DNA of 64,000 nucleotides. It comes from Minisyncoccota bacterium (GTDB lineage Bacteria; Patescibacteriota; Minisyncoccia; Phycocordibacterales; PALSA-1337). The notes beneath the pieces were generated by a model. That model was not told where the DNA came from. It ran no database searches and worked only from the letters and a program-made list of their open reading frames with translations. Made by a program: the position numbers and the translations under genes. Position 1 is the first letter of the stretch. Each line of letters starts with the position of its first letter. The DNA is taken from assembly GCA_041666915.1 (NCBI GenBank), contig JBAYFZ010000001.1, forward strand, positions 354,508 to 418,507, read 5' to 3'. Positions 9,436-31,478 of this stretch are shown one piece after another.

Positions 9436-9483
9436 TTCAAAACCTCATTTTGCAATCTATCATTTCTCTGTTATAGTTTCCCA

Positions 9484-10017
9484 ATGAAAGACATCGTCCA
9501 AAGAGACAACCCAGTCTTACGAGAAACGGCAAAGAATGTGCCTTTGGCTGATATTGGCGGAGAAAAAATCGCTCAAATTATAAAGAATATGAGTGCCTCT
9601 ATGGCATTACAAAAAGATGGTGTCGCTATCGCTGCCCCACAGATAGGTGTAAATCTCCGAATATTCGTTGTCTCTGGCAAACTACTCAAAGAAGCTGATA
9701 AGTCATTCAAAGGTGACGGCGTTACCGACCTAGTCTTCATCAATCCTGAAATAATAAAACTCTCCAAAGAAAAGAAAGATGTTGAAGAAGGTTGCCTATC
9801 AGTCCGTTGGTTGTATGGCAAAGTCCGTAGAGCTGTCCGCACCACCATCACCGCCTACAATGAAAAAGGAGAAAAGATAGAGCGTGGTGCCAGTGGAGTT
9901 TTGGCTCAAGTGTTCCAACACGAGATTGACCATTTGAATGGAGTTCTCTTTATAGATAAAGCAAAGGAAGTTTGGGAGATGACGGAGGAGGAGATAGCAG
10001 AGATGCAGAGGAAGTAA
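9484..10017 (+). CDS. def: peptide deformylase
   Basis: GVAIAAPQIG, EGCLS and QHEIDHLNG motifs. Confidence 0.9.
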   Translation: MKDIVQRDNPVLRETAKNVPLADIGGEKIAQIIKNMSASMALQKDGVAIAAPQIGVNLRIFVVSGKLLKEADKSFKGDGVTDLVFINPEIIKLSKEKKDVEEGCLSVRWLYGKVRRAVRTTITAYNEKGEKIERGASGVLAQVFQHEIDHLNGVLFIDKAKEVWEMTEEEIAEMQRK

Positions 10018-10023
10018 GGACAT

Positions 10024-10160
10024 GTTGTCATTCCCGCTTTTTATGTCATTCCCGCGAAGGCGGGAATCCAGGATAATACCACAATAAATAGCATGTATTT
10101 AAAAACCATTTAACAAACTTTCCATTCGTAATAATCCTGGATTCCCGCCTTCGCGGGAAT
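10024..10160. repeat. MITE/REP-like palindromic element copy 3, inserted between def and fmt
   Basis: Both inverted termini are present, plus an extra partial left terminus (GTCATTCCCGCTTTTTATGTCATTCCCGCGAAGG). The right terminus abuts or overlaps the annotated fmt start. Confidence 0.8.
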
Positions 10161-11076
10161 GACAAAACAAAAAACTATGCCCACCCCCTTCTCCTTCTTC
10201 GGATCCTCACGTTTCTCGGTAATAGTTCTCGAGCAACTTTTTCGTAAAGGATTGATCCCTTCATACATCATAACAACGGTAGACAAACCAATTGGACGAA
10301 AACAAATCATAACAGCCAACGTGGTCAAACAATGGGCCAATGAAAAAAATATTCCTGTTTATGACCCAGCCAAATTGAATCAGGAATTCGTAGATCAATT
10401 GATTAAATTAAATAAAAATACGGACGGTTCAGAAAAATGTCCAGTTTTCCTAGTCGCTTCTTACGGCAAAATAATTCCAAAGGTAATAATAGACTTACCT
10501 TCAAGAAAAACCCTCAACATCCACCCTTCTCTATTACCAAAATATCGTGGACCTTCCCCATTACCTTCGGCAATGTTGGATGACGATAAAAAGACTGGTG
10601 TGACTATCATGAGAATAGATGAGGAGATGGACCACGGCCCAATCGTAGCAAAGAAAGAAGTTGTGGTAACCGAATGGCCTATTTATGAAAAATACGAAGC
10701 AATGATGGCGGACGAAGGAGCAAAATTATTTGCAGAAATATTACCAAAATGGATAGCGGGAGAAATCAAAGAGCAAGAACAGGATCATTCCATTGCTACA
10801 TATACAAAAAAGATTACAAAAGAAGATGGGTTAATTGACCTCTCCGGTGACGCTTATACCAATTTTAGAAAAATCCAAGCCTACCACGAATGGCCAAAAG
10901 CGTATTTCTTCATGAAGCATACCGCCCGTTCGACCGGCTCAGGGCAAGACAAAGAAATCCGTGTAAAAATAACTGAGGCAAGTTTCAGTGATGGTCAATT
11001 GAAAATTCAGAAAGTAATTCCTGAGGGCGCAAAAGAGATGGCATACGAAGACTTCCTTCGTGGTTACAAAAATTGA
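10159..11076 (+). CDS. fmt: methionyl-tRNA formyltransferase
   Basis: Formyltransferase core with the HPSLLPKYRG motif and a C-terminal Fmt domain. The true start may be an internal Met because the first codons lie inside the repeat. Confidence 0.85.
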   Translation: MTKQKTMPTPFSFFGSSRFSVIVLEQLFRKGLIPSYIITTVDKPIGRKQIITANVVKQWANEKNIPVYDPAKLNQEFVDQLIKLNKNTDGSEKCPVFLVASYGKIIPKVIIDLPSRKTLNIHPSLLPKYRGPSPLPSAMLDDDKKTGVTIMRIDEEMDHGPIVAKKEVVVTEWPIYEKYEAMMADEGAKLFAEILPKWIAGEIKEQEQDHSIATYTKKITKEDGLIDLSGDAYTNFRKIQAYHEWPKAYFFMKHTARSTGSGQDKEIRVKITEASFSDGQLKIQKVIPEGAKEMAYEDFLRGYKN

Positions 11077-11276
11077 GTAAAACTAAGTTTAAAAACTACT
11101 AAAAACAGTATCCCAAGATACATAAGATTCTCCTAGAATGTAAGCTTTTTCTGTAAAATAATACAGGACTACCCAAAAACAGAATAGAGAAATAAAAGCA
11201 ATACAAAGCCATTGATTTACTGGCTGTCTCGCTTCTGACATACTAAAGAAATTCTTGTCCATTACAACTTTTTCAA

Positions 11277-11654
11277 TTAAGCCTTATCACCCCAAGGCCA
11301 TAGACCTTTTACAAAACCTTTCATCTTGGCACCACTCCTTCTGAGCAAAGAAACTTTTTTGCTTTTGACAACACGGAGTTCATTCATCATTTCTTCTTGA
11401 GCCATATCAATAGCGGTGTAGAGATCACTTCTCTCTGAACTAACATAAGCATTTTTACCAACGGCAACGATGTGAATTTCTGCTTTGAAAATCTCACCCT
11501 TCTGATGATGTTCGGTTGTCTTGGCTAGTTCCACATCACACAGAGCTGTAGGATCATTGCCGAGTAGTGAATTAAACTTTTGCAAACGCTTGTCGGCATA
11601 TTCTGAAATAGCTGGAGTAAGAGTGATGTTGGTAACTTTTATGTTTATCTTCAT
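11277..11654 (-). CDS. hpf: ribosome hibernation promoting factor / ribosome-associated inhibitor A family
   Basis: 125 aa; MKINIKVTNITLTPAISEY...HIVAVGKNAYVSSERSDLYTAIDMAQEEM matches the sigma-54 modulation protein fold. Confidence 0.8.
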   Translation of the reverse strand: MKINIKVTNITLTPAISEYADKRLQKFNSLLGNDPTALCDVELAKTTEHHQKGEIFKAEIHIVAVGKNAYVSSERSDLYTAIDMAQEEMMNELRVVKSKKVSLLRRSGAKMKGFVKGLWPWGDKA

Positions 11655-12068: not shown

Positions 12069-12388
12069 TCCGGAGTAGCTCAGCGGTAGAGCGATCGCCT
12101 GTAGAGTATGCAGCTTTCTGTCGAAAGGCAGATCGAATAACGAGGTGAATTCGGGGAAACCCCAAACGTAATTGTGGGCAATCCCGAGCCGAGCCCGCCA
12201 AATGGTGGGAAGGTGTAGAGACTATCCAATTTTGGAGTAGCTTGAATTATTTATATAATAATTCTTGCGAAGCCCCTCGTCCCTAAACTGTGGCATTGCC
12301 ACGATATGGGAATGATATAGTCCGTACCATTAGTAATAATGGATTAAACGTAAGCGATTGGTCACAGGTTCGAATCCTGTCTCCGGAG
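12069..12388 (+). tRNA. tRNA-Asn(GUU) interrupted in the anticodon loop (between positions 35 and 36) by a group I intron; mature tRNA 72 nt
   Basis: The 5' exon 12069-12102 is TCCGGAGTAGCTCAGCGGTAGAGCGATCGCCTGT. The 3' exon 12351-12388 is TAAGCGATTGGTCACAGGTTCGAATCCTGTCTCCGGAG. Joined, they give a perfect cloverleaf with acceptor TCCGGAG/CTCCGGA, anticodon stem ATCGC/GCGAT, loop CUGUUAA and discriminator G73. Confidence 0.85.
12103..12350 (+). ncRNA. group I self-splicing intron (248 nt) within tRNA-Asn
   Basis: Core elements are recognisable: P-like AATTGTGGGCAA, Q-like AATCCCGAGC, R-like GTAGAGACTATCC, S-like GATATAGTCC. A P9 hairpin CCATTAGTAATAATGG precedes the terminal omega-G at 12350. 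The 5' exon ends in U, which can pair in P1 (CUGU/GCAG). Confidence 0.75.
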
Positions 12389-13933
12389 CAAAGCTGGATG
12401 AAGGGGCGTAATAACGCCCTTTTGTCCTTTCTGGACAAGGGTTTTCTGTGGTTCGAAAAGCTTTTCTGAGTCAATCTTCTCTTGAACACGTTTAGCAATC
12501 ATCTCCACCGATTTCTCCAATGTATAGCTCACTTTTTCGTTGTTAATGACTAAGTTCGAAAAAATCTTCTTCAGAATCATTCGACGTTCCATTGGATTTC
12601 TTTTTTCATAAATCTCTCGGGACCTTCGAGCTATGTCAATAATATCAATGTATCGTTCGAAATATTTAACCTCATCATTCTTGAGTCTCGCAATTTGTGA
12701 TTGGATTCCTTCCTGTTCAGACATTATCTCCGCTTGTTTTGACTCCCAGCGGTCCCTAGTAATCTTCTCGTCTAAGTGATCATCATAAAGTATGTCCAAT
12801 CGCTTCTGTAGGCTGTTATAGCGTTCCTGAAGAGCTTTTAACATATTCTCCTTGTATTCAGATTCGCCTTTATGATCATCACGGATCTTTTGATATAGTT
12901 GCTCAGCTTCGACAGGTGTAATTGCCTCAAATATTCTAAATACAGACAAGATCGAGTTCTCAATTTCTTCTTCTCGAGTCGAATACCTCTGTGAGCAAGT
13001 CTTGTAGTGCTTACATGAGTAATAAATATGACCTTTCTGGACCTCCCCGTAGATTGTACTGCCACATTCTCCACAATGAATCATCTTAGAGAATATATGC
13101 TGACGCCTCTTATAATGTGGCGCACCGTCCCGGACCAAAGCTGTTTGCACTGAGTCAAACAGTTCCTTAGATATTAACGGTTCCTGTTTTCCACCTCTAT
13201 ACAAGACTCCCTTCCAAATCATATCTCCATAGAAAAAAGGATCTTTTAGTATCTCATGTAAACAGGACTTACCAAGCTGACAACCATTTCTTGCTCGTAA
13301 TCCCTCTGAGTATAGCTTGTCACTTAGGGCCATCAATGAATAATTGCCTGTAGCATAATATTCAAAAGCCTTTTTCATGAACGGTCCCCGGACCTCATCT
13401 ATGACGTGTATTTTGTGACCCTTGTCGCCAATAGTCTTATATCCGAGTGGTGGCGTACATGGGAGCCAACCCTGAGCGATTTTCTCCTTCTGACCTTTCT
13501 TCACCTCTTCTGAGAGATTGTTGGTGTAGAAGCGTGCAATAGCTATCTTCATATCCCAGACCAGATTCTCGTGAGCACGGGTATTCTTGTTAACTACTGA
13601 ATTCTCCTTCACAAAGTGCACTTCACGAGCTTCATCTTCCTGAATCCAGTCATTAACTATCGAAGCATCTTTCAAATTACGTGTTAGACGATCTATTTTC
13701 TCACAGAGGATAATATTCACATCATTCTTAACTGTATATTCCAACATCTCGTTAAACACAAGGCGTATTTGCTTGCCACTGGCTGATTCACTGATCCTAA
13801 AAACTTTTGATATTGTAAGGTTCCTTTTACCTGCATATTCCTTCAAGAGCTTTTCTTGTGCATCAAGAGAGTAACCGGTTTCCTCCTGTTCTCGAGATGA
13901 TACACGTGCATATATGACGCAGTCGGTTTTCAT
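12362..13933 (-). CDS. large serine recombinase (resolvase/invertase catalytic domain + recombinase domain + zinc ribbon)
   Basis: N-terminal VIYARVSSREQ catalytic-serine motif and DRLTRN; central recombinase domain; Cys-rich segment CGECGSTIYG...YYSCKHYKTC. The 3' end of the ORF overlaps the 3' exon of tRNA-Asn. Confidence 0.85.
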   Translation of the reverse strand: MKTDCVIYARVSSREQEETGYSLDAQEKLLKEYAGKRNLTISKVFRISESASGKQIRLVFNEMLEYTVKNDVNIILCEKIDRLTRNLKDASIVNDWIQEDEAREVHFVKENSVVNKNTRAHENLVWDMKIAIARFYTNNLSEEVKKGQKEKIAQGWLPCTPPLGYKTIGDKGHKIHVIDEVRGPFMKKAFEYYATGNYSLMALSDKLYSEGLRARNGCQLGKSCLHEILKDPFFYGDMIWKGVLYRGGKQEPLISKELFDSVQTALVRDGAPHYKRRQHIFSKMIHCGECGSTIYGEVQKGHIYYSCKHYKTCSQRYSTREEEIENSILSVFRIFEAITPVEAEQLYQKIRDDHKGESEYKENMLKALQERYNSLQKRLDILYDDHLDEKITRDRWESKQAEIMSEQEGIQSQIARLKNDEVKYFERYIDIIDIARRSREIYEKRNPMERRMILKKIFSNLVINNEKVSYTLEKSVEMIAKRVQEKIDSEKLFEPQKTLVQKGQKGVITPLHPALLRRQDSNL

Positions 13934-13976
13934 TTGTTTAATTAATTATATATTATCTTAATTTACTAAAAATTTA

Positions 13977-14459
13977 TTAGGCCTTAAATTTATTGTTAAG
14001 ATATTTCTTACCGTAATTAAGAATATCTATATTTGTGTTGTTTATTTGTTTGCTATATGAAGTAGTTTTTGATATAGCACTACCACTGTTCTCGGCTTTT
14101 CTTGAAACAAGATTGGTACTATTCATGAAACTTAAAAGTAAAGCAACTAATTTTTCTTTATTAATATGAAAATGTCTTTTTGCGGGTATACCTTTTAATT
14201 TAACTTCAAGAATTCCTTTATTCTTACATATCCTAATCGCTGTATCTTGTTCATTTCTCGTTAATGCAGTCTCCATGTATAAATCATCCGCAGTTTTATA
14301 TGTCCAATATTTATCTGCTCCCTTACCATCCCAAAAAAGAAGTTGACAAATTAGTATTCCAGCCTTAACACTTCCTAAAGCTCTAGCAATAATAGCATGA
14401 TAGGCTACGATTTTATCACCTAACAAACCATAAATTACCCTCTGGTGTTTATTACTCAT
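13977..14459 (-). CDS. hypothetical winged-helix protein (possible replication/excision-associated DNA-binding protein)
   Basis: 160 aa; an N-terminal YGLLGDKIVAYHAIIARALGSVKAGILICQLLFW helix-rich segment resembles phage replisome-organiser / DnaD-like N-terminal domains; weak. Confidence 0.35.
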   Translation of the reverse strand: MSNKHQRVIYGLLGDKIVAYHAIIARALGSVKAGILICQLLFWDGKGADKYWTYKTADDLYMETALTRNEQDTAIRICKNKGILEVKLKGIPAKRHFHINKEKLVALLLSFMNSTNLVSRKAENSGSAISKTTSYSKQINNTNIDILNYGKKYLNNKFKA

Positions 14460-14480
14460 ACGATTTTATGTTCCGGACCC

Positions 14481-14521
14481 AATACTGATACCTTAATGGT
14501 CGAAACTAAGGTGTCAGTATT
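14481..14521. repeat. imperfect 15-bp inverted repeat with 11-bp spacer (candidate recombinase binding / attachment site)
   Basis: AATACTGATACCTTA-ATGGTCGAAAC-TAAGGTGTCAGTATT, 14/15 arm match, in the AT-rich gap between the recombinase module and tRNA-Arg. Confidence 0.4.
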
Positions 14522-15021
14522 GATCCCGGGGTTTTGTTTATCCTCATAATCAAACTCGGCGAGTAGATTAAATAACGACGCCAATCCGATAACGTCATTT
14601 TCTTGATTATTTAATTTTGAATTATTTTCGACCATTTGTGTATGATGGTGTGAACGATTTACTCACCATTGACGACCATCATACTAAAACAGCCATTTAC
14701 GTTTAAAATAAAAATTAAATATGGCTTAACTAAGCCAATTATACAAAATAATCCAATACACACTTATTCTTACTCCTATAATATTTTATATTCTTTTCCG
14801 TTGATAAGTAGAACAGGTTTTGATACTATAATCACATATAAGAATACTGACGCCAGAAAGGCCCAGCTGGCGCGCGCCTTCATTAGAAGGAAGAGCGAAT
14901 GGAGGAACTGCCGCCCTCCCAGATCTATCTAAAAAACTTCCTTCAATAAAGGAAGTTTTTTAGTTTAAAACCATTACTTTCTGTTCGACCAATTGGGTAC
15001 AAACTTTAATACAACTAGCAG

Positions 15022-15094
15022 TACCCTCGGAAGGACTCGAACCTTCAACCTTGCCGATAGAAGCGACTTGCTCTGTCCATTGAGCTACGAAGGC
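15022..15094 (-). tRNA. tRNA-Arg(UCU)
   Basis: The reverse complement GCCTTCGTAGCTCAATGGACAGAGCAAGTCGCTTCTATCGGCAAGGTTGAAGGTTCGAGTCCTTCCGAGGGTA folds as a 73-nt cloverleaf with anticodon loop CUUCUAU and T-arm GAAGG-TTCGAGT-CCTTC. Confidence 0.8.
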
Positions 15095-15234
15095 ATAACA
15101 CCTAACAAAAAACCGCAAGAAAGCAACAACCAGTTGGGTTGTCAGCTATTGCGGTTTATCTTCTTCTCTTAATGGAATTCACTATGTTTATTATACTAAC
15201 AGATAAGTATCCAATCCTCAAGAAAGATGCGCCC

Positions 15235-15438
15235 TCAGATTAAAGTTAATCTATACCATATTTTTGCTTCAATTTGAGCAACTCTAGTATCGCTAATATT
15301 AAATTTCTTACCCGTAACCTTTTGAGTATGTCTAATCCCGTCAATTACTCCATACCTATACTCAAAGATGGCTGTATGTCTATCATTTAAGTTTAAAAGT
15401 GGTTTATTATTACAATATTTCTGTATCTGCTTTTTCAT
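15235..15438 (-). CDS. small sigma-70 region-4-like HTH protein
   Basis: 67 aa; C-terminal ISDTRVAQIEAKIWYRL resembles sigma-70 region 4.2 (xSxxRVRQIEAKALRKL). Its start overlaps the recombinase stop. Confidence 0.5.
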   Translation of the reverse strand: MKKQIQKYCNNKPLLNLNDRHTAIFEYRYGVIDGIRHTQKVTGKKFNISDTRVAQIEAKIWYRLTLI

Positions 15439-16796
15439 TATATTTTTATATTTTTAACAAAAGGCATAATATTTTCATAAATATTTTCTGGTTTAATAAT
15501 ATACTCAAGATATTGATTGTCATCTGAAAATAAAACAAAATTGCACTGATTAAAAACATTTGTCGGTATAAGGAAAACATCATCTATCAATTCTTTTTTA
15601 CCTAATGTAATACTAACAGCAAAAACTTTATCGTAACTCCTCTTTTCTTCTTCAATGACAAAGATCGTAGACTTCTTACCAGAATTGACTTCATATGAAT
15701 TAACACTATAAGCAAGAGGAAACTTCTTTATTTTAGATTCAGCATCATCTACACTAAAACCCTCTTTCACAAGGAGTTCTCTCATCTCTCTCTCAACAAA
15801 ATTCTGTGCTTTACGTATCATATAAATACCTTTTTTCCATCTCGAAGGTGTGGACCAAAAGAGACGATCTTGAGCCATCCAAAATATTTTCTCATCAATA
15901 ACAGCCGGAAACGCTTTCGGAGCAATGGCCCACTCATTTCGTGGATTTTTTACCTTCTTCTGCTTTAATTTACCTGATGTCTTATTGTAAAGTCTTGTAC
16001 CAGTATAAACTTCATTCCCTAAAATATGACTAACTTTTCCTTTACTCCATACCCCACCATTCGCAGAAGGAATACTCTTCTCATTTAAAATATCGACAAT
16101 ATCACTTGTGGTAAGCCACTTATTTACAAACATATCGAAAATATCTTTCACTACATCTGTAGTCTCGTCATTAAGGGGTGCAAATGTAACGCGTTGATTA
16201 CTAATTTGTTTATGTTCACCTTTTTTAAGTTCACGTATAGGTTTTTTATTCTCATCCAGAAGAAGCCTTACCATACCATAGCAGGCTGTACCACCAGCAG
16301 AATAACCATCTTTTGAAATCTTCATGCAACCGTACCAAACTTTACCACTCAATTGTCGCGAGTATTGTGCGGCCATCCAACGTTCCATTGGCGTAATGAT
16401 ACTATCAGTTATCTCTTGCTCCTCTCTTGGAAATGGCTTACTTGTGTATAGAACTTTCTTACCATGTTGTTCGCAAAGATGTTCGTAATAAGCTGCTTCG
16501 TTTTGGTTTTGGAATCTACCCCAACGAGAAACATCATATACGAGTATGTAATCGAAGTGGGGTGCGTTTGGATTAAGCACCCAATCTTTCATAAGACTTT
16601 GAAAACCTGGACGGTTTGCCGTTAAACCACTTACACCCTCATCAGCAAGATGATCAATAATTTCTCCACCGAATTTTGTAGCAAAACGTGCATGATGATC
16701 TTTTTGGATAGGAACAGAATTTTCTTGTTTATCTTCAGCAGAATGACGGTTATACGTAATTCCTACCCATATTCGTTTTGATTGTAAAAATTGCAT
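15438..16796 (-). CDS. large serine recombinase (second copy, divergent sequence)
   Basis: N-terminal resolvase-like domain (VGITYNRHSAEDKQ, DVSRWGR) and central recombinase domain (GKVWYGC...ERWMAAQYSRQLS). Confidence 0.75.
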   Translation of the reverse strand: MQFLQSKRIWVGITYNRHSAEDKQENSVPIQKDHHARFATKFGGEIIDHLADEGVSGLTANRPGFQSLMKDWVLNPNAPHFDYILVYDVSRWGRFQNQNEAAYYEHLCEQHGKKVLYTSKPFPREEQEITDSIITPMERWMAAQYSRQLSGKVWYGCMKISKDGYSAGGTACYGMVRLLLDENKKPIRELKKGEHKQISNQRVTFAPLNDETTDVVKDIFDMFVNKWLTTSDIVDILNEKSIPSANGGVWSKGKVSHILGNEVYTGTRLYNKTSGKLKQKKVKNPRNEWAIAPKAFPAVIDEKIFWMAQDRLFWSTPSRWKKGIYMIRKAQNFVEREMRELLVKEGFSVDDAESKIKKFPLAYSVNSYEVNSGKKSTIFVIEEEKRSYDKVFAVSITLGKKELIDDVFLIPTNVFNQCNFVLFSDDNQYLEYIIKPENIYENIMPFVKNIKI

Positions 16797-16797
16797 A

Positions 16798-17655
16798 CTA
16801 GAGAATCTTCTTAAGTTCCGTGATTAAATTCTTTTCTTTTTCATCAAAAGGGATACCATTTTTCCTTTTCTTTTTTACTTCTTCTATAAGTTGTAATATG
16901 TGAAGAGAAAAATCCGATTGAATAGTGTCTCGATCAAGTTCAGCTACCGTTGCATCAGGGTCTGATAAAAATCTATAGATTTCGGCTTCATTGGCAGCGG
17001 CACGGGCAAATATCTTCTGTATCTTGCGAAAATCTTTAGCATTTTTAATAATACGATGCTTAACCTTTTCAAAGAGTATTTTAATTATATCCGGCGTCTC
17101 AAAGTTTCTTATCTTTCTCAATTTTGGCCACAATCTCACGAACTCCATCCGGTACACTTCCTTAAGATCATACTTAACCATAAGCTCAAGATAATCTAAT
17201 TTTTGTTCTCTCAATTGAAGAGACGACGCAATAGTTGTCCTCGAGAGATTCAAAAGTTTTGAAAGTTCTTCATTACTCTTAAGTCCTAGCATTATCTTTG
17301 CTCTATGAAGGGAGTTTGATTTTTCCATAGGTTTCCACCCTTTTCGGTTATTCTGTTTTTCATATCGTCGTATTTCTAACTCTCCATCATCAAGATCTGG
17401 ATAAATCTGACACATAGCTTTTTCTACACCCAGACCTTTTAAACAAAGATAACGACGATGCCCATCAATTATTAAGTAACGATTATCGTCTTTCTGGGTA
17501 ACCATTATCGGTTCTTGAAGTCCAAATTGCTTAAGAGAACTAGTAAGCTTTTCTTGTTCTGATGGATTACCATATTCTTTTCGTGGCTGATTACTATCTA
17601 ATTCAATTTCTGAAATTAATACTTCCTTAAAGATTGTTGTATGTTTCCCTATCAT
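16798..17655 (-). CDS. ParB/Srx-fold nuclease-like domain protein
   Basis: N-terminal ParB box (LIIDGHRRYLCL, GxRR) with a C-terminal helical region. Confidence 0.7.
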   Translation of the reverse strand: MIGKHTTIFKEVLISEIELDSNQPRKEYGNPSEQEKLTSSLKQFGLQEPIMVTQKDDNRYLIIDGHRRYLCLKGLGVEKAMCQIYPDLDDGELEIRRYEKQNNRKGWKPMEKSNSLHRAKIMLGLKSNEELSKLLNLSRTTIASSLQLREQKLDYLELMVKYDLKEVYRMEFVRLWPKLRKIRNFETPDIIKILFEKVKHRIIKNAKDFRKIQKIFARAAANEAEIYRFLSDPDATVAELDRDTIQSDFSLHILQLIEEVKKKRKNGIPFDEKEKNLITELKKIL

Positions 17656-23552: not shown

Positions 23553-24144
23553 TTTAAATCATTTTACAAACACAAAAAGCCCACCACGGGTAGAGGCCGA
23601 AGCCCCTCATATCAGTTTCCCGATATGGCAGATTAAGGCGACCCCATGATGGGTTCTTTGTCCTTAATCTGACTAACTTTTCACCATGCCAGAAATCACT
23701 TATTTCTGGTTTAGGCTACTTATACATATTCAGTTGTATGTTTAGGATACCACTCTATTACGTCCATGCCAATATTCAGCTCTTTAACAATCGTGTAATG
23801 CATGTCTCCCTTCACCACATAATAGTGTATAATAAAGCTATGAAATACGCTTATCTATCCATAATAATTCTTTTAATAATCAGTGGTTTTTATTGGTTTC
23901 AGTTGCGACCAAGCCAAATTAAAAAACATTGTTTTTATACCAGTGCAACATTAAAAGAAAATTTATCGCCTCATGCCGATTTAACTTCTCCAGATAGCTT
24001 TAGTCTCGCCAGCGTAGAAGCACAATCCAATTACCATTCTTGTTTAACCTCGAATGGACTTTAAGGTTGAACTCGAAGAAAAAATGTGATGTAAGTCACT
24101 ATCCACAGTTTTTTTATTTCTATTTGGTTGATATAATGTTGCTC

Positions 24145-24705: not shown

Positions 24706-24847
24706 GAGTTATTATATTATAGACTACGAACGGCTTGTCAAGGAAGCATAAAACCTGTGTATAGCAATTTTATGATTAACAAATAATAAAAAGTCAAACT
24801 TAAAACTGCCCTATTGGCTTTAAATATGTACAAAAACGCGTCTCAAA

Positions 24848-25387
24848 ATGTCACAATGGACTAAAGATTTTATTGGCATTATACTATTGGTTATGATCAA
24901 TGAAATACAAACGGAAAAAGATTTCTCTGAACAACTTATTAAAGGAAAAATTACTGAGCTTGTCTTTGAACGAATGTTTCGTACGGTTGGACACTTTACT
25001 GTGATACCTTTCGGTTATGAAAATACTTTGCCCGAAATAGTCCAGTATCAACACTTGGCAAAATATCCTCAAGTCTTTGATACAATCAAAACAGCTCCCG
25101 ACTTTGCAATTGTATCTCATGACAGAAGTGAGGTTTTTCTAGTTGAAGTCAAGTACCGAACAGGTCATACCGATAAAGCTATACTAGAGCTAGCAGGAGA
25201 AATTCAAAAGAAATGGAAACTTGTTAGATTGTTTCTTGCCACACCTTCTGGTTTCTATTTTGATTCCTGTAGTAACATCATTAAAAATGAAGGTAAAATA
25301 TCCACTCTTGGACCACAATGGGTAAATGATGAGGTACAAAAGGAATACCTAGAACTATTAAATCAATTTATCATTAGACCTAACTAA
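24848..25387 (+). CDS. PD-(D/E)xK nuclease-fold protein
   Basis: PDFAIVSHDRSEVFLVEVKYR contains D...EVK spaced as in restriction-endonuclease-like folds. Confidence 0.5.
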   Translation: MSQWTKDFIGIILLVMINEIQTEKDFSEQLIKGKITELVFERMFRTVGHFTVIPFGYENTLPEIVQYQHLAKYPQVFDTIKTAPDFAIVSHDRSEVFLVEVKYRTGHTDKAILELAGEIQKKWKLVRLFLATPSGFYFDSCSNIIKNEGKISTLGPQWVNDEVQKEYLELLNQFIIRPN

Positions 25388-25437
25388 AAATATCTACCGT
25401 TTATTACGGGGACTTTTCTATTTTAACAAGGCAAAAA

Positions 25438-27318
25438 CTAATCGTTCTTACTCTTAGATGTAACCCAACTTTCTTCAAGATCAACGGTACCACTATTTGG
25501 TCGTCTCGATTTCTCAAGAAGCTCAATATCGACTTTAACCGGTATATCCGAAGCTAATCCAGCAACAAAACAACTTCCCACAGAAAGAATTGGAATGCTT
25601 TGAAATGACAATTTATCAAGATAAGCGACAGCTTTTTCTACTGCGCTTATATCATTATCATTTATAAGTCTATGAATAAAATAGTTATGTAGCTGAGAAA
25701 TTATTGTGGCTGATATATCATAAGGCCTTTGGCTTGCAATAGTTAGAAAGACACCAAATTTTCTTCCCTCCTTTATAATTTCTTCAAAAGTCTCTAGACG
25801 ATAATCCTTCCATGTCTCACTTTCTCGCTGAGACATTGTGGAGAGAATATTATGAGCCTCATCTATAATTATATGTAGCGATTTTTTGTCAGACTCCTTT
25901 TTGTTTTCGTACAACTGTTTCGCAATTATTAGCGGAACAATCTTCTTCATCTCAATATTTACATCTCTTAAAGAAATGACGGATAGATTCTTTGATTCGG
26001 GGCTATCTTTAATATCAATCAGTTTCTCCAACATATCAAACTTTCTGAACATTCTGCCCACTAATGGTCCAATATGTTCTTGGTTTGAATATCCCTTTAC
26101 GATTTCATGAAAATAATTAAAAACGATTTTCAATTTCAGCTTACTAAATTCGTCAGCCTTAAAGACCAGTGCATCCACAGATGTTTTAAGTCGAGTGTCG
26201 TATATAGGGTTTTTATTGTTGTAATTATTGCCATCATTTGATGCGTCCCAGTAATACTCCTTTGTAAGGGAGTGATAGTGTAGTTTATTTTCAATATCTT
26301 TTTTAAGTGCAATTACATCATCCTTCTTCTCATCTGTAACAAGATTTATCAGGTCTCTAAAAAGCTCGATGATTACCCCTTCTCTAAGGTTTCCATCCTT
26401 CTTATCAATAACACCAGTACACAGATCTTCGATACTTGTAATAGCTCGAGTATTAAAAGTCGTATTATCATCAAGATAATCATTACGTATAACTCTATCG
26501 AGAAAGGGCTTTTGTGTTTTTTCTGTTGCCTCCAGTAAAACAGACAGGATTTCTGTCTTGTGAATACTTTCTCTAGGAAGCGGGTATTTTTTCTTACTGC
26601 CTTTTTTACCAGTTGATAGCTCATAGACCACTTTGTCTTTCGTAATCATTTCATCACCAGTATATTCACCATTGAAATCAATTATCACAAAATCTGATTT
26701 GGTTTTGAAATCACCTTGATCTGAGAATGTTTTAAAAAGCTCAGTGTATATTTTCGCAAGTGTATTTGATTTACCGCTTCCGGTGTTGCCGAAAATACCA
26801 ATATGGCTGGCAAACAATTTATTAACACCTAGCTTTATCTTTTGTGACGGCTCTTCTGTTAGACTGCCGACCGCAATAGTTTTGTCACCCTTTTTGTAAA
26901 ACTGGTGAAGTACATTAAATTCATCTCTATTTAGCAAATAGCACTCATTATCGATCAAGGGCATTTCTTTTATACCCTGCTTTACACAATTACCTTCAAA
27001 ATGACCAAAGAGAGACAATTGCAAAACCCTATTTATCCTAGTCTCTTCTTTGTTGTATTCTTTATTAAAAAACTTTTCTTCAGAGGTAAATTCGCCCTCA
27101 ACTTTTCCAATAATACTCACGAAACCCTTTACTATCTTTACATAGCTACCTACAGACACATTTTTTACAGTTTTTCCTTCGAATAAAATATGCGAATGAT
27201 TTTTATTTTTATTTAGTTTTACCCTAACAATTCTACCGTCAACTGAGAGAACGCGGCCAATTATAAAAATCGACTCTTGCATCAATTCTTGCTCAATTGT
27301 TTTACTCTTTGTCTCCAT
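25438..27318 (-). CDS. herA: HerA-like (DUF87) ATPase, partner of SIR2 in the SIR2-HerA antiphage system
   Basis: N-terminal HAS-barrel-like segment, Walker A GNTGSGKSN, Walker B HIIIDEAHN, and the GRKFGVFLTIASQRP motif typical of HerA/FtsK-like ATPases. Confidence 0.8.
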   Translation of the reverse strand: METKSKTIEQELMQESIFIIGRVLSVDGRIVRVKLNKNKNHSHILFEGKTVKNVSVGSYVKIVKGFVSIIGKVEGEFTSEEKFFNKEYNKEETRINRVLQLSLFGHFEGNCVKQGIKEMPLIDNECYLLNRDEFNVLHQFYKKGDKTIAVGSLTEEPSQKIKLGVNKLFASHIGIFGNTGSGKSNTLAKIYTELFKTFSDQGDFKTKSDFVIIDFNGEYTGDEMITKDKVVYELSTGKKGSKKKYPLPRESIHKTEILSVLLEATEKTQKPFLDRVIRNDYLDDNTTFNTRAITSIEDLCTGVIDKKDGNLREGVIIELFRDLINLVTDEKKDDVIALKKDIENKLHYHSLTKEYYWDASNDGNNYNNKNPIYDTRLKTSVDALVFKADEFSKLKLKIVFNYFHEIVKGYSNQEHIGPLVGRMFRKFDMLEKLIDIKDSPESKNLSVISLRDVNIEMKKIVPLIIAKQLYENKKESDKKSLHIIIDEAHNILSTMSQRESETWKDYRLETFEEIIKEGRKFGVFLTIASQRPYDISATIISQLHNYFIHRLINDNDISAVEKAVAYLDKLSFQSIPILSVGSCFVAGLASDIPVKVDIELLEKSRRPNSGTVDLEESWVTSKSKND

Positions 27319-28321
27319 GATTCATGCTATTTAAGACTTCACTGAGGACCGACTGATTGATTTTTTCTAGGTTAAATCTACTTGCTGGCTCATCATCTGA
27401 GGGTTCAATGATTTCAATATTTGAATACCTCAATTTTCCAAGTTGCATTTTTGTCTTCATACTTGAATCCGTATCCTTTCCGTGGCAAAACACATAAATT
27501 TTTAGTGTAGGATTCGATTCTGCTGCTCTTATCGTTATTTCTCGAATATGTTCATCTTCCATAGAGAATCCTAGAACAAAAAGAACGGTATTTTCTTTTT
27601 CCAGTTCACCTGAATACATTCTGAGCAATTCGTAGTAAGTTACATCGATTACCGTTTCTTCAAGTTTTTTCCTTTCTGGATTTACTATTGCTAATCTTTC
27701 ATAACCAGCCTCAAAAGCTCGTTGTCCCTTTTTTAACAAAGATTTATCGAAATGTTCTAGCTTTGAAAAATGAATTTTATTTTCAACCTTTTCCCATGTC
27801 AAAGATCCGTGGACTTTCATAAGATTAAACAAAGGTATTTCTGAAACATTCTCATAGTGCAAACTTCTTTTTTGTATTGATTTTTTAAAATTACTCAGGC
27901 TAAAAGTAGCATTTAATCGACCATTGAAACCATCGTTATATTCAAGACTACTATCTTCCAAAACAGTTTCCATCAGTATATCTATGTTTGTAGTAAATAT
28001 GTTAACTTGCTTACTGAGAATTGTATTCTTGCGCTTCAAAAGTATACGTGCAAGCATTTCAAAAAAATCCTTATACGCCTTACATGTTGTATCAAAATCG
28101 CCTTTTTTAGCTATTGATTTACTAATAATTTCAAGATTAGGAATTATTACTCTCTCAAAATACTCCTTCTTTATCTTTACCCGCTCAGATTTCTTTTTTT
28201 CGCTAGATAAACGAGTCTCAATATCACCAAGTATTGGCAAAAACGGTGTTGAAAGACCAGCCCCAACTAGGACATTTATGTGCGAGCTCTGTATGGCCTC
28301 TTTTATTTCTTGAGGTTTCAT
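27302..28321 (-). CDS. SIR2-family (DHS-like NAD-binding) protein, SIR2-HerA antiphage system
   Basis: VLVGAGLS (GAGxS), IFTTNIDIL (TTNYD-like) and MKVHGS (HGS) motifs; overlaps the herA start by 17 nt. Confidence 0.8.
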   Translation of the reverse strand: MKPQEIKEAIQSSHINVLVGAGLSTPFLPILGDIETRLSSEKKKSERVKIKKEYFERVIIPNLEIISKSIAKKGDFDTTCKAYKDFFEMLARILLKRKNTILSKQVNIFTTNIDILMETVLEDSSLEYNDGFNGRLNATFSLSNFKKSIQKRSLHYENVSEIPLFNLMKVHGSLTWEKVENKIHFSKLEHFDKSLLKKGQRAFEAGYERLAIVNPERKKLEETVIDVTYYELLRMYSGELEKENTVLFVLGFSMEDEHIREITIRAAESNPTLKIYVFCHGKDTDSSMKTKMQLGKLRYSNIEIIEPSDDEPASRFNLEKINQSVLSEVLNSMNHGDKE

Positions 28322-28650
28322 AAATTTTCCAAAGAATAAATATCAAAGGCGACCTCATCGTATGGATGAATTTTTTTGACTGCTTTAACAAGCTCAGAAA
28401 GATTTTCACGAGCGCACACGGTCTCAATTCTTTCTTCGGCTACTTCTTCAAATTTACCAACTTCGCCGATATGCGGATCCGCTCCCGCATCGGGTCTGAA
28501 CCGACCAGTTCCCTTCGAGGAGAAGGTGCAGAAACTGTAATTACCGATCTTACCAGCTCCGGCCTTACCCATAGCTTCACGAACCACATCGGTATGGGTT
28601 TCTGGTACGAAAACAACAATTTTTACATTCCTACTTGCAACTGATTTCAT
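28318..28650 (-). CDS. small CutA/PII-like fold protein (family uncertain)
   Basis: 110 aa; the VVFVPETH...AGAGKIGNY...HPYDEVAFD pattern resembles small PII/CutA-like or Nif3-insert-like proteins; stop overlaps the SIR2 start (ATGA). Confidence 0.35.
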   Translation of the reverse strand: MKSVASRNVKIVVFVPETHTDVVREAMGKAGAGKIGNYSFCTFSSKGTGRFRPDAGADPHIGEVGKFEEVAEERIETVCARENLSELVKAVKKIHPYDEVAFDIYSLENL

Positions 28651-28738
28651 TATGTGGTCAACTTTAGCACTTTTTATAGAAAAAATATACTAATCTATGA
28701 TGCCAAAAAGTAAACAAAAGTAAACATTTTTAATACGT

Positions 28739-29149
28739 TTATTTATCATCTTGCGGCCTCAAGAATCGGTAATTACCAATCGTCTTAAGAAGTCTATTAG
28801 CTTGCTGTTTTGCACTCTTGGGACTATAACCAGCAATAATTGCTGCTTGTGTAGCGTTACAAGAAGTGAGATACGCTTCCAGAAACCTTAACCTCCGCAT
28901 ATCCTTGGCACACAAAATTGTACCTTGATCATAAAGAGCGCCAACTAGTTCATATATTAGGCGCCTGTATGGTCTATAAAAGATGATTCTGGTGAGCAAC
29001 ACAGCCTCTTCTGTTGAAAATTTAGGGAATCTTCCGGTACGCCCATACTTTTGTCGAAGCAGTTTCTCGTCGAATACCATACCTGCCCAGATCATAACCA
29101 TATCCCGTGTATTCATTGTTCTCTTACTTTGTATATTCTTGTCGCTCAT
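28739..29149 (-). CDS. phage terminase small subunit-like protein (orphan)
   Basis: C-terminal AYLTSCNATQAAIIAGYSPKSAKQQANRLL matches the Terminase_2/P27-type HTH signature; no large subunit nearby. Confidence 0.6.
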   Translation of the reverse strand: MSDKNIQSKRTMNTRDMVMIWAGMVFDEKLLRQKYGRTGRFPKFSTEEAVLLTRIIFYRPYRRLIYELVGALYDQGTILCAKDMRRLRFLEAYLTSCNATQAAIIAGYSPKSAKQQANRLLKTIGNYRFLRPQDDK

Positions 29150-30201: not shown

Positions 30202-30897
30202 TTATTTTTCGTTATCGTGCATTACTTTCAATAAAAAGATGGTATCAGTCTTTAACTTTGCACGAGCAGAATCCTTCTGTGAATCAGTGATCAATTCACC
30301 AAGCCCATCTAAAATATGTTTATTATCCATTGACTCCAACATGGCAATACATTTCTCTAATGCTTCCTTATATGGAACTCCCGATCTTTCTTCCACAATC
30401 TTGCGGTTAATAGGCCAGTTATTTTTAGCAAAATACTGAACATCAAAAATATCACGACTTGTCTTACCGATTCGCTCAAACATTGCCATCAACTTATGTG
30501 CAAACATGTCTTCTTGGACCATTACGAGCATTGAGATGCCGAGATATGTTTTCATTTCATACTTTGAGCCAAGTTGGCGACGATTCACCTCAACCTTAAT
30601 TTTCTGAGCATTAGTATCATAAGAGATAACATTCTTTAAATTGAATCTCTGCATGTATGAATCAGTAATTTTGCCGTAATTACTTACAATCTTGTTTATT
30701 TTCTCAAAAACGTCCTTTTCTTTTGTCTCATCCAACAAATCAAGATCCAAATCTACAGAGTTTCTGGGCAAATCATAAAACATCATAGCTGCGGTACCAC
30801 CTTTGAATCCCAAATAAGGTGCAATAGAGGTATCAGAATAGATATCTTTTAAGATCTGTAACAAGATATTCTTATGTTTTGAGTAATCTAATGTCAT
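30202..30897 (-). CDS. abiEii: AbiEii/AbiGii-family nucleotidyltransferase toxin (type IV TA / abortive infection)
   Basis: LGFKGGTAAMMFYDLPRNSVDLDLDL matches the DUF1814/AbiEii signature. Confidence 0.75.
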   Translation of the reverse strand: MTLDYSKHKNILLQILKDIYSDTSIAPYLGFKGGTAAMMFYDLPRNSVDLDLDLLDETKEKDVFEKINKIVSNYGKITDSYMQRFNLKNVISYDTNAQKIKVEVNRRQLGSKYEMKTYLGISMLVMVQEDMFAHKLMAMFERIGKTSRDIFDVQYFAKNNWPINRKIVEERSGVPYKEALEKCIAMLESMDNKHILDGLGELITDSQKDSARAKLKTDTIFLLKVMHDNEK

Positions 30898-31478
30898 ATA
30901 ATTTTTTGATATTCTTTTACCTTCTTTTCTAAACGCTTGTTGTTATAAATTGGTAATATTTCCATCACCTTATTCCAATCCAATGAACGCAAATTATCAA
31001 AGTGATAATCTTTGCTTACATATACACGGTCTAAAAAGGCACGTTCACGTGATGCGGTGGCAATACCACTTGTATGTTCTATTCCCATTGAATTACTCAA
31101 AACGTAATCTTTCATCCGAACGAAAGTAATTTTTTGATCACCAATTGTAATTTCTCGATTCATGTATGATGCAACGAAAATATTTCCGTAATATTGGAAA
31201 TTTACCCCTTCACGAGTCAAAATGGTTTCAAAGCTAATATATGATGGGGTGTAGATACGAGTTGCTAATTCGAAACGATTGTAATTTTTATCTTTAGCAT
31301 AAAATCCTCTGTGAACTCTGATCAACTTTTCCGCTTTTACATAATAGTTCAAACGGACCCTAGCCGCTGATTCATTTTGTTCCCCCCACATCAAAACCAC
31401 ATCCTTTGTTGAAAAGATGGTCTGGGGTGATCTTAATAAGATCTCCAAAAATTCGCCTTTTGTGGGTTTATTATCCAT
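30894..31478 (-). CDS. abiEi: AbiEi-family antitoxin / transcriptional regulator
   Basis: KLIRVHRGFYA motif typical of AbiEi N-terminal domains; stop overlaps the abiEii start by 4 nt. Confidence 0.65.
   Translation of the reverse strand: MDNKPTKGEFLEILLRSPQTIFSTKDVVLMWGEQNESAARVRLNYYVKAEKLIRVHRGFYAKDKNYNRFELATRIYTPSYISFETILTREGVNFQYYGNIFVASYMNREITIGDQKITFVRMKDYVLSNSMGIEHTSGIATASRERAFLDRVYVSKDYHFDNLRSLDWNKVMEILPIYNNKRLEKKVKEYQKII

What the first reader, a model, noticed from the sequence alone, without database searches (positions are those of the whole stretch)
24848..28650. SIR2-HerA antiphage pair with a convergent PD-(D/E)xK nuclease and a co-directional CutA/PII-like gene
SIR2 (GAGLS, TTNID, HGS) overlaps HerA (HAS barrel, Walker A/B, ASQRP) by 17 nt. 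This is the operon organisation of the NAD-depleting SIR2-HerA defence system described in other bacteria. Two extra genes are not part of the described two-gene system. One is a small PD-(D/E)xK nuclease-fold gene converging on herA. The other is a ~110-aa CutA/PII-like gene whose stop overlaps the SIR2 start (ATGA). In a presumed reduced-genome, episymbiont-like host, such a defence locus is itself notable.
Basis: partly seen in the sequence, partly recalled or inferred. Interest (0 to 1): 0.6.

Follow-up and report, generated by a model that had tools for sequence, protein, structure and literature searches.

The report
SIR2-HerA defence pair in a variable island
A Patescibacteria (CPR) genome carries an intact two-gene SIR2-HerA anti-phage system, and the two neighbouring genes proposed as extra parts are unrelated genes flanking a swap-prone defence island.

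Summary

In 80 related HerA loci plus four from the closest relatives, SIR2 lies upstream wherever the contig allows. p110 is never present and nuc is present once, in a different arrangement. None of 80 nuc loci carries SIR2-HerA. DNA similarity to the closest relatives covers only the two genes.

p110 and tRNA-Asn bracket a variable stretch beside def-fmt-hpf. In relatives the slot behind p110 holds Schlafen-like, AbiJ/GajB-like, Shedu-like or nuclease-like genes, often with a serine recombinase abutting tRNA-Asn.

Verdict: a new member of a known system in a defence hotspot. A real role for p110 with varied defence cargo is not excluded (about 12%).

The parts
27302..28321 (-). sir2: short SIR2-family NADase subunit (339 aa). 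Carries GAGLS 20-24, TTN-I-D 110-114 (N112, D114) and HGS 171-173 (H171).
   Evidence: PADLOC SIR2 PDLC04080 at 5.4e-63, residues 6-322 on 17-336 of 347. Pfam SIR2_2 at 1.1e-11. Matches the Sir2 chains of solved Sir2-HerA complexes 8YHX, 8J4U/8SU9 and 8W9L, with TTNID aligned to TTNYD and HGSL aligned to HGS.
25438..27318 (-). herA: HerA-type hexameric ATPase partner (626 aa). Walker A is GNTGSGKS 177-184. Walker B is IIIDEAH 483-489. ASQRP is at 528-532.
   Evidence: PADLOC HerA PDLC04097 at 5.4e-177, residues 13-621 on 1-614 of 618. Pfam DUF87 (HerA central domain) at 1.5e-19. Matches the HerA chains 8YHO, 8WIV and 8J4U_M. It overlaps sir2 by 17 nt.
28318..28650 (-). p110: stand-alone YqfO-like PII/CutA-like domain protein (COG3323 type, HPYDE 95-99). 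It is a flanking gene, not a SIR2-HerA component. Its stop overlaps the sir2 start (ATGA).
   Evidence: PDB 2gx8 (B. cereus NIF3-related YqfO), residues 159-262, E 4e-33. Identity is 73-81% across more than 100 Patescibacteria clusters, some named 'YqfO family protein'. Absent from 84 SIR2-HerA loci. Lies upstream of different genes in 10 other loci.
28651..28690 (-). Conserved promoter-like leader directly upstream of p110 (TGCTAAAGT ... GACCACATA ATG). It probably drives p110-sir2-herA as one transcript.
   Evidence: Nearly the same sequence precedes p110 in L170 and L172/L176. DNA similarity of L170, L172, L182 and L186 to the window extends to 28687. Function is inferred.
24893..25387 (+). 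nuc: small PD-(D/E)xK-fold protein (164 aa; the ORF could start at 24848). It converges on herA with 50 bp between the stop codons. It is an independent island gene, not a SIR2-HerA component.
30202..31478 (-). AbiEii (30202-30897) and AbiEi (30894-31478): a second defence/toxin-antitoxin pair in the same island.
   Evidence: PADLOC AbiEii at 2.1e-76 and AbiEi at 1.9e-54. Pfam AbiEii and AbiEi_4. The pair is 87% and 79% identical to the pair at the same relative position in L166.
12069..12391 (+). tRNA-Asn(GTT), the far boundary of the variable stretch. Here it is interrupted by a 248-nt group I intron (12103-12350). Exon 2 overlaps the 3' end of the serine recombinase gene 12362-13933.
   Evidence: The two tRNA-Asn halves match by blastn. 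Rfam Intron_gpI scores 45.9 bits, E 1.6e-10, over the full model. ARAGORN with introns allowed reports tRNA-Asn i(35,248).
12362..17655 (-). Integration module(s): large serine recombinases at 12362-13933 and 15438-16796, tRNA-Arg(TCT) at 15021-15094, and a ParB_N protein at 16798-17655.
   Evidence: Pfam Resolvase/Recombinase/Zn_ribbon_recom and ParB_N. tRNA.
7414..11654 (.). Conserved chromosomal flank: PriA-like gene (7414-9435 +), def (9484-10017 +), fmt (10159-11076 +), hpf/S30AE (11277-11654 -).
   Evidence: tblastn and blastn matches to the Pfam-annotated flanks of L166, L170 and L189.

Best explanation
The locus holds a complete, self-sufficient two-gene SIR2-HerA anti-phage system of a short-SIR2 subtype.

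By homology with the solved S. aureus, Paenibacillus and E. coli systems, the likely mechanism is as follows (inferred). Sir2 rings dock on a HerA hexamer. On infection the complex hydrolyses NAD+ through N112, D114 and H171. It also burns ATP and nicks DNA through HerA (Walker A K183, Walker B D486/E487). The infected cell stops growing before phage are released.

The two flanking genes are not parts of the system. sir2-herA sits as swappable cargo in a variable stretch of a Paceibacteria-type chromosome. This stretch runs from p110 to tRNA-Asn, beside hpf-fmt-def. p110 is a conserved stand-alone YqfO/PII-like gene with its own promoter. In relatives the slot directly behind p110 holds other defence genes. 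Large-serine-recombinase elements abut tRNA-Asn there.

Because the sir2 start codon overlaps the p110 stop, the system is probably transcribed from the p110 promoter and translationally coupled to it (inferred). The small PD-(D/E)xK gene is an independent island or mobile-element gene that happens to converge on herA.

It is not resolved whether p110 is a chromosomal gene at the edge of the hotspot or a backbone gene of the integrative element.
For: Identity of the pair:
- Both proteins match PADLOC profiles end to end.
- Pfam SIR2_2 and DUF87 hit.
- Both match chains of solved Sir2-HerA complexes, with the catalytic motifs aligned.
- Catalytic N163/D165/H212 of the Paenibacillus Sir2 and the complex mechanism come from PMC11472057, PMC11514289 and PMC13434337.

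The two genes form the unit:
- SIR2 lies directly upstream of HerA in 75 of 80 species-representative loci. Four of the five exceptions are cut by a contig end.
- DNA similarity to the four closest loci spans window 28327/8 to 25465-25484 only.
- Relatives with 84-87% identical HerA sit behind type III or type II restriction-modification (R-M) genes instead of p110.
- No third gene is conserved in 84 loci. The commonest neighbours are type I R-M HsdR (16 loci) and HsdM (15 loci).
- p110 is present in 0 of 84 loci and nuc in 1 of 84. SIR2-HerA is present in 0 of 80 nuc loci.

The hotspot:
- PriA-def-fmt-hpf and AbiEi/AbiEii in the window are syntenic with L166, L170 and L189.
- Cargo behind p110 differs by locus. 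L166 has SLFN_AlbA_2/PDC-S65. L170 has an AbiJ-like gene plus a GajB-like UvrD. L172 has a 939-aa REase-like protein. L182 has HARE-HTH plus SduA_C. L180 has unknown genes.
- The serine recombinase 3' end overlaps tRNA-Asn in the window, L170 and L172.
- L170, L172, L180 and L182 share a terminator, iteron-like repeats, an HTH_36 gene and a recombinase.

The genes are intact:
- dN is 0.08-0.19 with saturated dS for SIR2 and HerA.
Against: - The ATGA overlap of the p110 stop with the next gene's start recurs in 8 of 11 distinct p110 contexts. This looks tighter than a purely positional link.
- p110 is flanked by defence genes on both sides in about 6 genomes. By guilt by association, that would make it a defence candidate.
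- The NCBIfam equivalog models for anti-phage SIR2 and HerA hit far below their cut-offs: 82 against 500 bits, and 123 against 800 bits. This subtype is therefore distant from the tested ones and has not itself been tested.
- No intrinsic terminator was found between herA and nuc.
- Co-transcription, NADase activity and phage protection are all inferred, not shown.
Confidence: 0.82

Rival explanations
1. p110 is a real functional partner. In this reading it is a small-molecule-sensing PII-like trimer that regulates SIR2-HerA here, and other effectors in related genomes. It would act as a shared sensor or regulator module placed in front of interchangeable defence effectors.
For: - p110 sits directly upstream of defence-type genes, usually with a 4-nt overlap, in the window, L166, L170, L172 and L182.
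- R-M genes lie directly upstream of it in L166, L170, L172, L180 and L182.
- PII-like and CutA-like proteins are ligand-binding signalling trimers (PMC1779786, PMC8469502).
- The function of the stand-alone COG3323 form is unknown (PMC8469502).
Against: - p110 is present in 0 of 84 SIR2-HerA loci.
- SIR2-HerA works as a two-gene system in the published cases (PMC11472057, PMC11514289).
- p110 also occurs in non-defence operons with NUDIX, hydrolase and nucleotidyltransferase genes (L177, L168). In L186 it has no co-directional downstream gene at all.
- It is far more conserved than defence-specific partners usually are: 73-81% within Patescibacteria, high similarity to the B. cereus YqfO insert, dN/dS about 0.1.
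- It gives no PADLOC hit.
Confidence: 0.12
2. The convergent PD-(D/E)xK protein is a third, nuclease component or a regulator of this SIR2-HerA variant.
For: - It lies 50 bp from the herA stop.
- One Saccharibacteria locus (L033) has a 37%-identical homologue about 850 bp upstream of sir2.
- The closest HerA relative (L165) has a different PD-(D/E)xK gene (PDDEXK_1) just downstream of herA.
Against: - SIR2-HerA is present in 0 of 80 loci of its family. The nuclease is present in 1 of 84 SIR2-HerA loci, in a different orientation.
- Its closest homologue (84% identity) sits beside tRNA-Asn and hpf.
- Its usual neighbours are serine recombinases, a Rep-like protein, methyltransferases and integrases. 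In six loci a LOOT RNA leader precedes it.
- Convergent orientation rules out co-transcription.
- DNA similarity to SIR2-HerA relatives stops before it.
Confidence: 0.03
3. The pair is an inactive remnant carried passively in a decaying island.
For: - The island carries signs of layered insertions: two recombinases and an ORF-poor 1.1-kb stretch.
- This subtype has not been tested experimentally.
Against: - Both ORFs are full length against their profiles.
- All catalytic and Walker residues are kept.
- The conserved 17-nt overlap is kept.
- dN is far below dS.
Confidence: 0.03

Closest known systems
SIR2-HerA anti-phage system. Solved examples: S. aureus 8YHX/8YHO (PMC11514289), Paenibacillus sp. 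453MF 8W9L/8WIV/8WLD (PMC11472057), E. coli 8J4U/8SU9. E. coli types I-III are classified in PMC13434337.
   Same: - Two overlapping co-directional genes, sir2 first.
- SIR2 carries the GAG.S, TTN.D and HGS motifs.
- HerA carries Walker A, Walker B and an N-terminal domain.
- Both proteins match PADLOC SIR2 and HerA profiles end to end.
- The pairing is conserved in homologues.
   Different: - The SIR2 is short: 339 aa against 381-428 aa in the solved examples.
- Similarity to the solved proteins is remote (E 1e-13 for Sir2, 2e-28 for HerA).
- Scores are far below the NCBIfam equivalog cut-offs.
- The host is a CPR bacterium.
- The pair lies directly behind an unrelated PII-like gene.
- This subtype has not been tested experimentally.
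Stand-alone YqfO-like (COG3323) PII/CutA1-like domain, DUF34 family subgroup D (PMC8469502). The same domain is the inserted lid domain of YqfO/SA1388 (2gx8, 2nyd; PMC1779786).
   Same: p110 aligns over its whole length to the insert of 2gx8 (E 4e-33). It keeps the HPY(D)E signature and lacks the NIF3 domains.
   Different: It is found here and in relatives inside defence or mobile islands, ahead of variable cargo. The function of the stand-alone form is unknown in any organism.
Defence hotspots in integrative elements and at tRNA genes, such as the cargo hotspots of P2/P4-type elements and defence islands (from general knowledge, not tested here).
   Same: - Conserved flanks (p110 on one side; a terminator, iterons, a Rep-like gene and a recombinase abutting tRNA-Asn on the other) bracket a slot.
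- The slot holds a different defence system in each genome.
   Different: - The host is Patescibacteria.
- The recombinase is a large serine recombinase.
- The left flank is a PII-like gene whose stop codon overlaps the cargo start.
- The window itself lacks the conserved right-hand block.
Small PD-(D/E)xK nucleases: Hjc-type resolvases, YraN/UPF0102, homing endonuclease I-Ssp6803I, influenza PA-N endonuclease.
   Same: Same fold and the same E...PD...ExK motif.
   Different: - No Pfam or NCBIfam family reaches significance (YraN E 0.099).
- There is an extra N-terminal helix and C-terminal helices.
- The substrate is unknown.

Membership tests
SIR2-HerA defence system | SIR2-family subunit with the NAD-binding GAG.S loop and catalytic Asn/Asp/His (N163, D165, H212 in Paenibacillus Sir2) | tested here: met
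   GAGLS is at 20-24, TTNID at 110-114 and HGS at 171-173. They align to TTNYD and HGS of 8YHX and 8J4U. Pfam SIR2_2 hits at 1.1e-11. The catalytic residues are named in PMC11472057.
SIR2-HerA defence system | HerA-type ATPase with Walker A and B motifs and an N-terminal barrel domain | tested here: met
   Walker A is at 177-184 and Walker B at 483-489. Pfam DUF87 hits at 1.5e-19. The PADLOC HerA profile covers residues 13-621. Residues 13-267 align to residues 7-248 of Paenibacillus HerA 8WIV. The barrel fold itself was not modelled.
SIR2-HerA defence system | Adjacent co-directional sir2-herA operon, conserved among homologues | tested here: met
   The 17-nt overlap is present. SIR2 lies directly upstream of HerA in 75 of 80 loci, and 4 of the 5 exceptions are cut by contig ends. 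The same overlap is seen in L161, L164 and L165.
SIR2-HerA defence system | Match to curated defence-system profiles | tested here: met
   PADLOC HerA PDLC04097 hits at 5.4e-177 and SIR2 PDLC04080 at 5.4e-63, both nearly full length.
SIR2-HerA defence system (NCBIfam equivalogs NF042942, NF042943, NF042944) | Score above the curated equivalog cut-off | tested here: not met
   SIR2 scores 82 bits against a cut-off of 500. HerA scores 123 against 800 and 99 against 850. The pair is a homologue but not an equivalog of the curated subfamilies.
SIR2-HerA defence system | Supramolecular Sir2-HerA complex, NAD+ depletion and phage protection | not testable with these tools
   Needs expression, phage-challenge, NAD+ and structural assays.
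   p110 is present in 0 of 84 loci and nuc in 1 of 84 (L033, a different arrangement). SIR2-HerA is present in 0 of 80 nuc loci. No conserved third gene was found.
Stand-alone YqfO-like PII domain (COG3323, DUF34 subgroup D) | Homology to the PII-like insert of YqfO, the HPYE signature, and no NIF3 domains | tested here: met
   2gx8 residues 159-262 match at E 4e-33 and SA1388 residues 137-234 at 9e-15. HPYDE is at 95-99. The protein is 110 aa in total. The signature is described in PMC8469502.
PD-(D/E)xK nuclease superfamily | Core alpha-beta-beta-beta-alpha-beta fold with the E / PD / (D/E)xK catalytic motif | tested here: met
AbiE (AbiEi/AbiEii) toxin-antitoxin defence | Adjacent AbiEi antitoxin and AbiEii nucleotidyltransferase toxin | tested here: met
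   PADLOC hits at 1.9e-54 and 2.1e-76. Pfam AbiEi_4 and AbiEii hit. The genes overlap by 4 nt (30894-30897).

The most novel reading that the evidence does not exclude
The stand-alone YqfO/PII-like protein (p110) may be more than a bystander. In this reading it is the conserved front gene of a defence cargo slot in Patescibacteria islands that abut tRNA-Asn. It would supply the promoter and translational coupling to whichever effector sits behind it: SIR2-HerA, Schlafen-like, AbiJ/GajB-like, Shedu-like or REase-like genes. It might also act as a ligand-sensing regulator of that effector. That would give the enigmatic COG3323 domain its first functional context. It would also describe a modular 'one sensor, many effectors' arrangement in CPR bacteria.
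Probability: 0.12. Interest if true: 0.7.

Novelty: new member of a known kind. Interest (0 to 1): 0.33.

Why it matters
The finding adds a well-supported SIR2-HerA example of a short-SIR2 subtype from a CPR (Paceibacterota) genome. It shows that this subtype moves as a strict two-gene cassette between defence islands of many phyla. At least eight Patescibacteria lineages carry it, so NAD-depletion immunity is not rare in these reduced genomes.

It also shows concretely that tight gene overlap does not prove membership of a system.

The by-products may be more useful than the system itself:
- A recognisable defence hotspot in Paceibacteria, running from p110 to tRNA-Asn beside hpf-fmt-def, which could be mined for unknown CPR defence genes.
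- A repeated island context for the uncharacterised stand-alone YqfO/PII-like protein.

Tried and rejected
- Pfam, NCBIfam and PADLOC gave nothing for p110 or for the small nuclease.
- IMG/VR holds no p110 relative.
- tblastn hits in 'phage' records look like ordinary YqfO genes of Listeria, Enterococcus, Staphylococcus and Acinetobacter at 30-46% identity (my reading; not followed up). They say nothing about this locus.
- The conserved terminator/iteron block that follows the cargo in L166, L170, L172, L180 and L182 was searched for in the window and not found. The window's island is therefore not the same element.
- No displaced tRNA-Asn 3' half that would mark the far end of an element was found in the window.
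- I considered that p110's 3' end might be the recombinase attachment site. I dropped this idea once the recombinase genes were seen to overlap tRNA-Asn instead.
- No census of defence systems in Patescibacteria turned up in the paper library.
- The paper behind the LOOT family does not mention it in its main text.
- dN/dS could not be computed for SIR2 and HerA because dS is saturated.
- The consensus promoter scan was no better than chance: 22 sites found against 20 expected.


Full report
OBSERVATION

The window matches a 450-kb contig of a Candidatus Paceibacterota MAG. Proteins identical to those encoded here carry that name and consecutive locus tags: WCS89_02105 for the nuclease and WCS89_02120 for the 110-aa gene.

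All four ORFs exist as described:
- The small nuclease-fold ORF ("nuc") is 24848-25387 (+). Its likely true start is 24893 (164 aa), because homologues are 155-165 aa and DNA similarity to the closest one starts exactly there.
- herA is 25438-27318 (-).
- sir2 is 27302-28321 (-).
- The 110-aa gene ("p110") is 28318-28650 (-).

sir2 and herA overlap by 17 nt. The p110 stop and the sir2 start share ATGA. All quoted motifs are in place.

WHAT THE PAIR IS

- HerA matches PADLOC HerA profile PDLC04097 at 5.4e-177 over residues 13-621. SIR2 matches PDLC04080 at 5.4e-63 over residues 6-322.
- Pfam gives DUF87 (HerA central domain) and SIR2_2.
- Both proteins hit the chains of solved Sir2-HerA complexes. 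These are S. aureus 8YHX/8YHO, Paenibacillus 8W9L/8WIV/8WLD and E. coli 8J4U/8SU9. TTNID aligns to TTNYD and HGS to HGS.
- The papers behind those entries identify N163, D165 and H212 as the catalytic Sir2 residues. They describe a Sir2-ring/HerA-hexamer complex with NADase, ATPase and nuclease or nickase activities (PMC11472057, PMC11514289, PMC13434337).
- The window's proteins are remote from the solved ones. They fall far below the NCBIfam equivalog cut-offs. SIR2 is short at 339 aa. This is a distinct, untested subtype.
- The subtype is nonetheless large. 7,019 database proteins match HerA at E <= 1e-20.
- Against relatives with 84-87% identical HerA, dN is 0.08-0.19 with saturated dS. 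The genes are intact and under constraint.

ARE THE NEIGHBOURS PART OF IT?

I fetched 80 species-representative genome loci around HerA relatives and 80 metagenome loci around relatives of the small nuclease. I searched all of them with the window's proteins.
- SIR2 lies directly upstream of HerA in 75 of 80 loci. Four of the five exceptions are cut by a contig end.
- p110 is present in none.
- The nuclease is present in one (L033, 37% identity). There it lies about 850 bp upstream of sir2 on the same strand, with an ORF between.
- None of the 80 nuclease loci holds SIR2, HerA or p110.

The closest HerA relatives (84-87%) sit directly behind type III or type II restriction-modification (R-M) genes, not p110. 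DNA similarity between the window and the four closest loci runs from 6-7 nt before the sir2 ATG to 27-46 nt before the herA stop, and nowhere else. Clustering the neighbours of 84 loci finds no conserved third gene. The commonest neighbours are type I R-M HsdR (16 loci) and HsdM (15 loci). The conserved and mobile unit is therefore the two-gene cassette.

WHAT THE NEIGHBOURS ARE

p110:
- It aligns over its full length to the PII-like insert of B. cereus YqfO (2gx8 residues 159-262, E 4e-33) and of S. aureus SA1388.
- It keeps the HPY(D)E signature.
- That insert has the PII/CutA fold and forms trimeric lids (PMC1779786).
- Stand-alone forms (COG3323, DUF34 subgroup D) are known, but their function is not (PMC8469502).
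- The family is very conserved in Patescibacteria: 73-81% identity over more than 100 clusters and dN/dS about 0.1.

nuc:
- Its family has invariant E22, D70 (PDF), E85 and K87 (EVK).
- Its usual neighbours are serine recombinases, a Rep-like protein, methyltransferases, integrases, Fic and RadC. It is a gene of mobile islands.

THE CONTEXT THAT EXPLAINS THE ARRANGEMENT

Eleven distinct p110 contexts were recovered. The window's PriA-like gene, def, fmt and hpf (7414-11654) and its AbiEi/AbiEii pair are syntenic with the flanks of L166, L170 and L189.

Between p110 and a tRNA-Asn gene beside hpf, the content differs in every genome. The window has SIR2-HerA. Relatives have:
- L166: SLFN_AlbA_2 (PADLOC PDC-S65) plus a 240-aa protein.
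- L170: an Abi_C/AbiJ-like protein plus a GajB-like UvrD helicase.
- L172: a 939-aa REase-like protein.
- L182: HARE-HTH plus SduA_C (Shedu-like).
- L180: two unknown proteins.

R-M genes lie directly upstream of p110 in five of these loci.

L170, L172, L180 and L182 share a conserved backbone behind the cargo. It consists of a terminator-like hairpin, iteron-like repeats, an HTH_36 protein and a large serine recombinase (69-82% identical). In L170 and L172 the recombinase 3' end overlaps tRNA-Asn. L166 keeps only the hairpin/repeat remnant and the tRNA.

In the window the tRNA-Asn lies at 12069-12391, and a serine recombinase gene (12362-13933) overlaps its 3' exon. About 12.5 kb follows before nuc. 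It holds a second recombinase, tRNA-Arg, a ParB_N protein and small ORFs. The closest nuc homologue (84%) lies 50 nt after an intact tRNA-Asn beside hpf, and both of its contigs break just after it.

sir2-herA therefore sits in the cargo slot directly behind p110. p110 on one side and nuc on the other are simply what borders it in this genome. The shared flanks of the variable stretch are p110 and tRNA-Asn.

A conserved promoter-like leader precedes p110 in the window, L170 and L172. The p110 stop overlaps the next gene's ATG in 8 of 11 contexts. I infer that the cargo is expressed from the p110 promoter with translational coupling. This step is not shown.

WHAT REMAINS OPEN

It is unclear whether p110 is a chromosomal gene at the edge of the hotspot or a backbone gene of the integrative element. 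L172 carries the same arrangement next to the ATP synthase operon rather than hpf, which favours the backbone reading. L177, L168 and L186 show p110 in non-defence contexts, which favours a housekeeping role.

A real role for p110 with diverse defence cargo cannot be excluded. I put it at about 12%.

VERDICT

This is a genuine, apparently functional SIR2-HerA system, a new member of a known kind, in a CPR genome. It is not rare there: 8 of the 80 representative loci come from Patescibacteria. The proposed accessory genes are correctly folded-classified but wrongly assigned to the system. Interest is modest and comes mostly from the hotspot and the recurring island context of the YqfO-like protein.

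Noticed in passing
window 12069-12391 (+): tRNA-Asn(GTT) is interrupted in its anticodon loop by a 248-nt group I intron (12103-12350). The intron scores 45.9 bits (E 1.6e-10) over the full Rfam model, ends in G, and the 5' exon ends in T. The joined exons fold as tRNA-Asn. Relatives (L166, L170, L172, L189) have the intact tRNA. Exon 2 overlaps the 3' end of the serine recombinase gene 12362-13933.
   Followed up: partly
window 23592-23717 (-); L083, L087, L092, L100, L128, L147, L165: A LOOT RNA (Rfam RF03000, 78.6 bits) lies 40 nt upstream of a 164-aa membrane/zinc-ribbon ORF (23058-23552). In six loci of the small-nuclease family, the same RNA lies 26-64 nt upstream of the nuclease gene and points the same way. 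In L165 it precedes a 171-aa gene. It behaves like a 5' leader of small island genes.
   Followed up: partly
window 30202-31478 (-): An AbiEii/AbiEi toxin-antitoxin defence pair (PADLOC 2e-76 and 2e-54) lies 1.5 kb from p110. It is 87% and 79% identical to the pair at the same relative position in L166.
   Followed up: yes
window 12362-17655 (-): Two large serine recombinases (12362-13933, 15438-16796), tRNA-Arg(TCT) at 15021-15094 and a ParB_N protein (16798-17655) lie here. They suggest two integrated elements in tandem between tRNA-Asn and the nuclease gene. Element ends were not found.
   Followed up: partly
L170 10950-14500, L172 11100-14420, L180 9950-13090, L182 9100-12545, L166 7600-8140: A conserved element backbone lies behind the variable cargo. 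It has a terminator-like hairpin (GCCCCGTGTACGC...CGGGGCTTTTTACG), iteron-like repeats (AAATTGATTCCGCAC...), an HTH_36 protein and a serine recombinase; the recombinase overlaps tRNA-Asn in L170 and L172. L166 keeps only the hairpin/repeat remnant.
   Followed up: partly
window 23720-24890: This is an ORF-poor 1.1-kb stretch between the LOOT RNA and the nuclease gene. It has a strong terminator-like hairpin on the + strand at 24680-24695 (GCTCCCGCAAGGGAGC followed by a T-run). It gives no Rfam match and could hold an undescribed RNA.
   Followed up: no
window 28739-29149 (-); L084 6517-6642; L168 11397-11852: A 136-aa protein matches only the N-terminal HTH part of the small terminase subunit (Pfam Terminase_2, 1.5e-10). 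It lies upstream of p110. Similar small terminase-like genes sit next to a nuclease homologue (L084) and next to a serine recombinase (L168).
   Followed up: no
L165 7779-8531 (+): In the closest SIR2-HerA relative (87% HerA identity), a 250-aa PDDEXK_1 protein follows herA after 13 nt on the same strand. It is unrelated to the window's small nuclease. A 501-aa PD-(D/E)xK-like protein (by eye, from its sequence) follows herA in four other loci.
   Followed up: partly
window 27774-27802 (-): The best promoter-like match in the region (TTGACA, 17-nt spacer, TAAAAT; 11 of 12) lies inside sir2, about 450 nt upstream of the herA start. The scan as a whole was no better than shuffled sequence.
   Followed up: no
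L082 200-715; L189 and L190 contig ends: Contigs carrying the closest nuclease homologues break 100-180 bp after the gene. In L082 the protein diverges after residue 142. This pattern fits strain-level variation or a recombination breakpoint at the 3' end of the nuclease gene.
   Followed up: no
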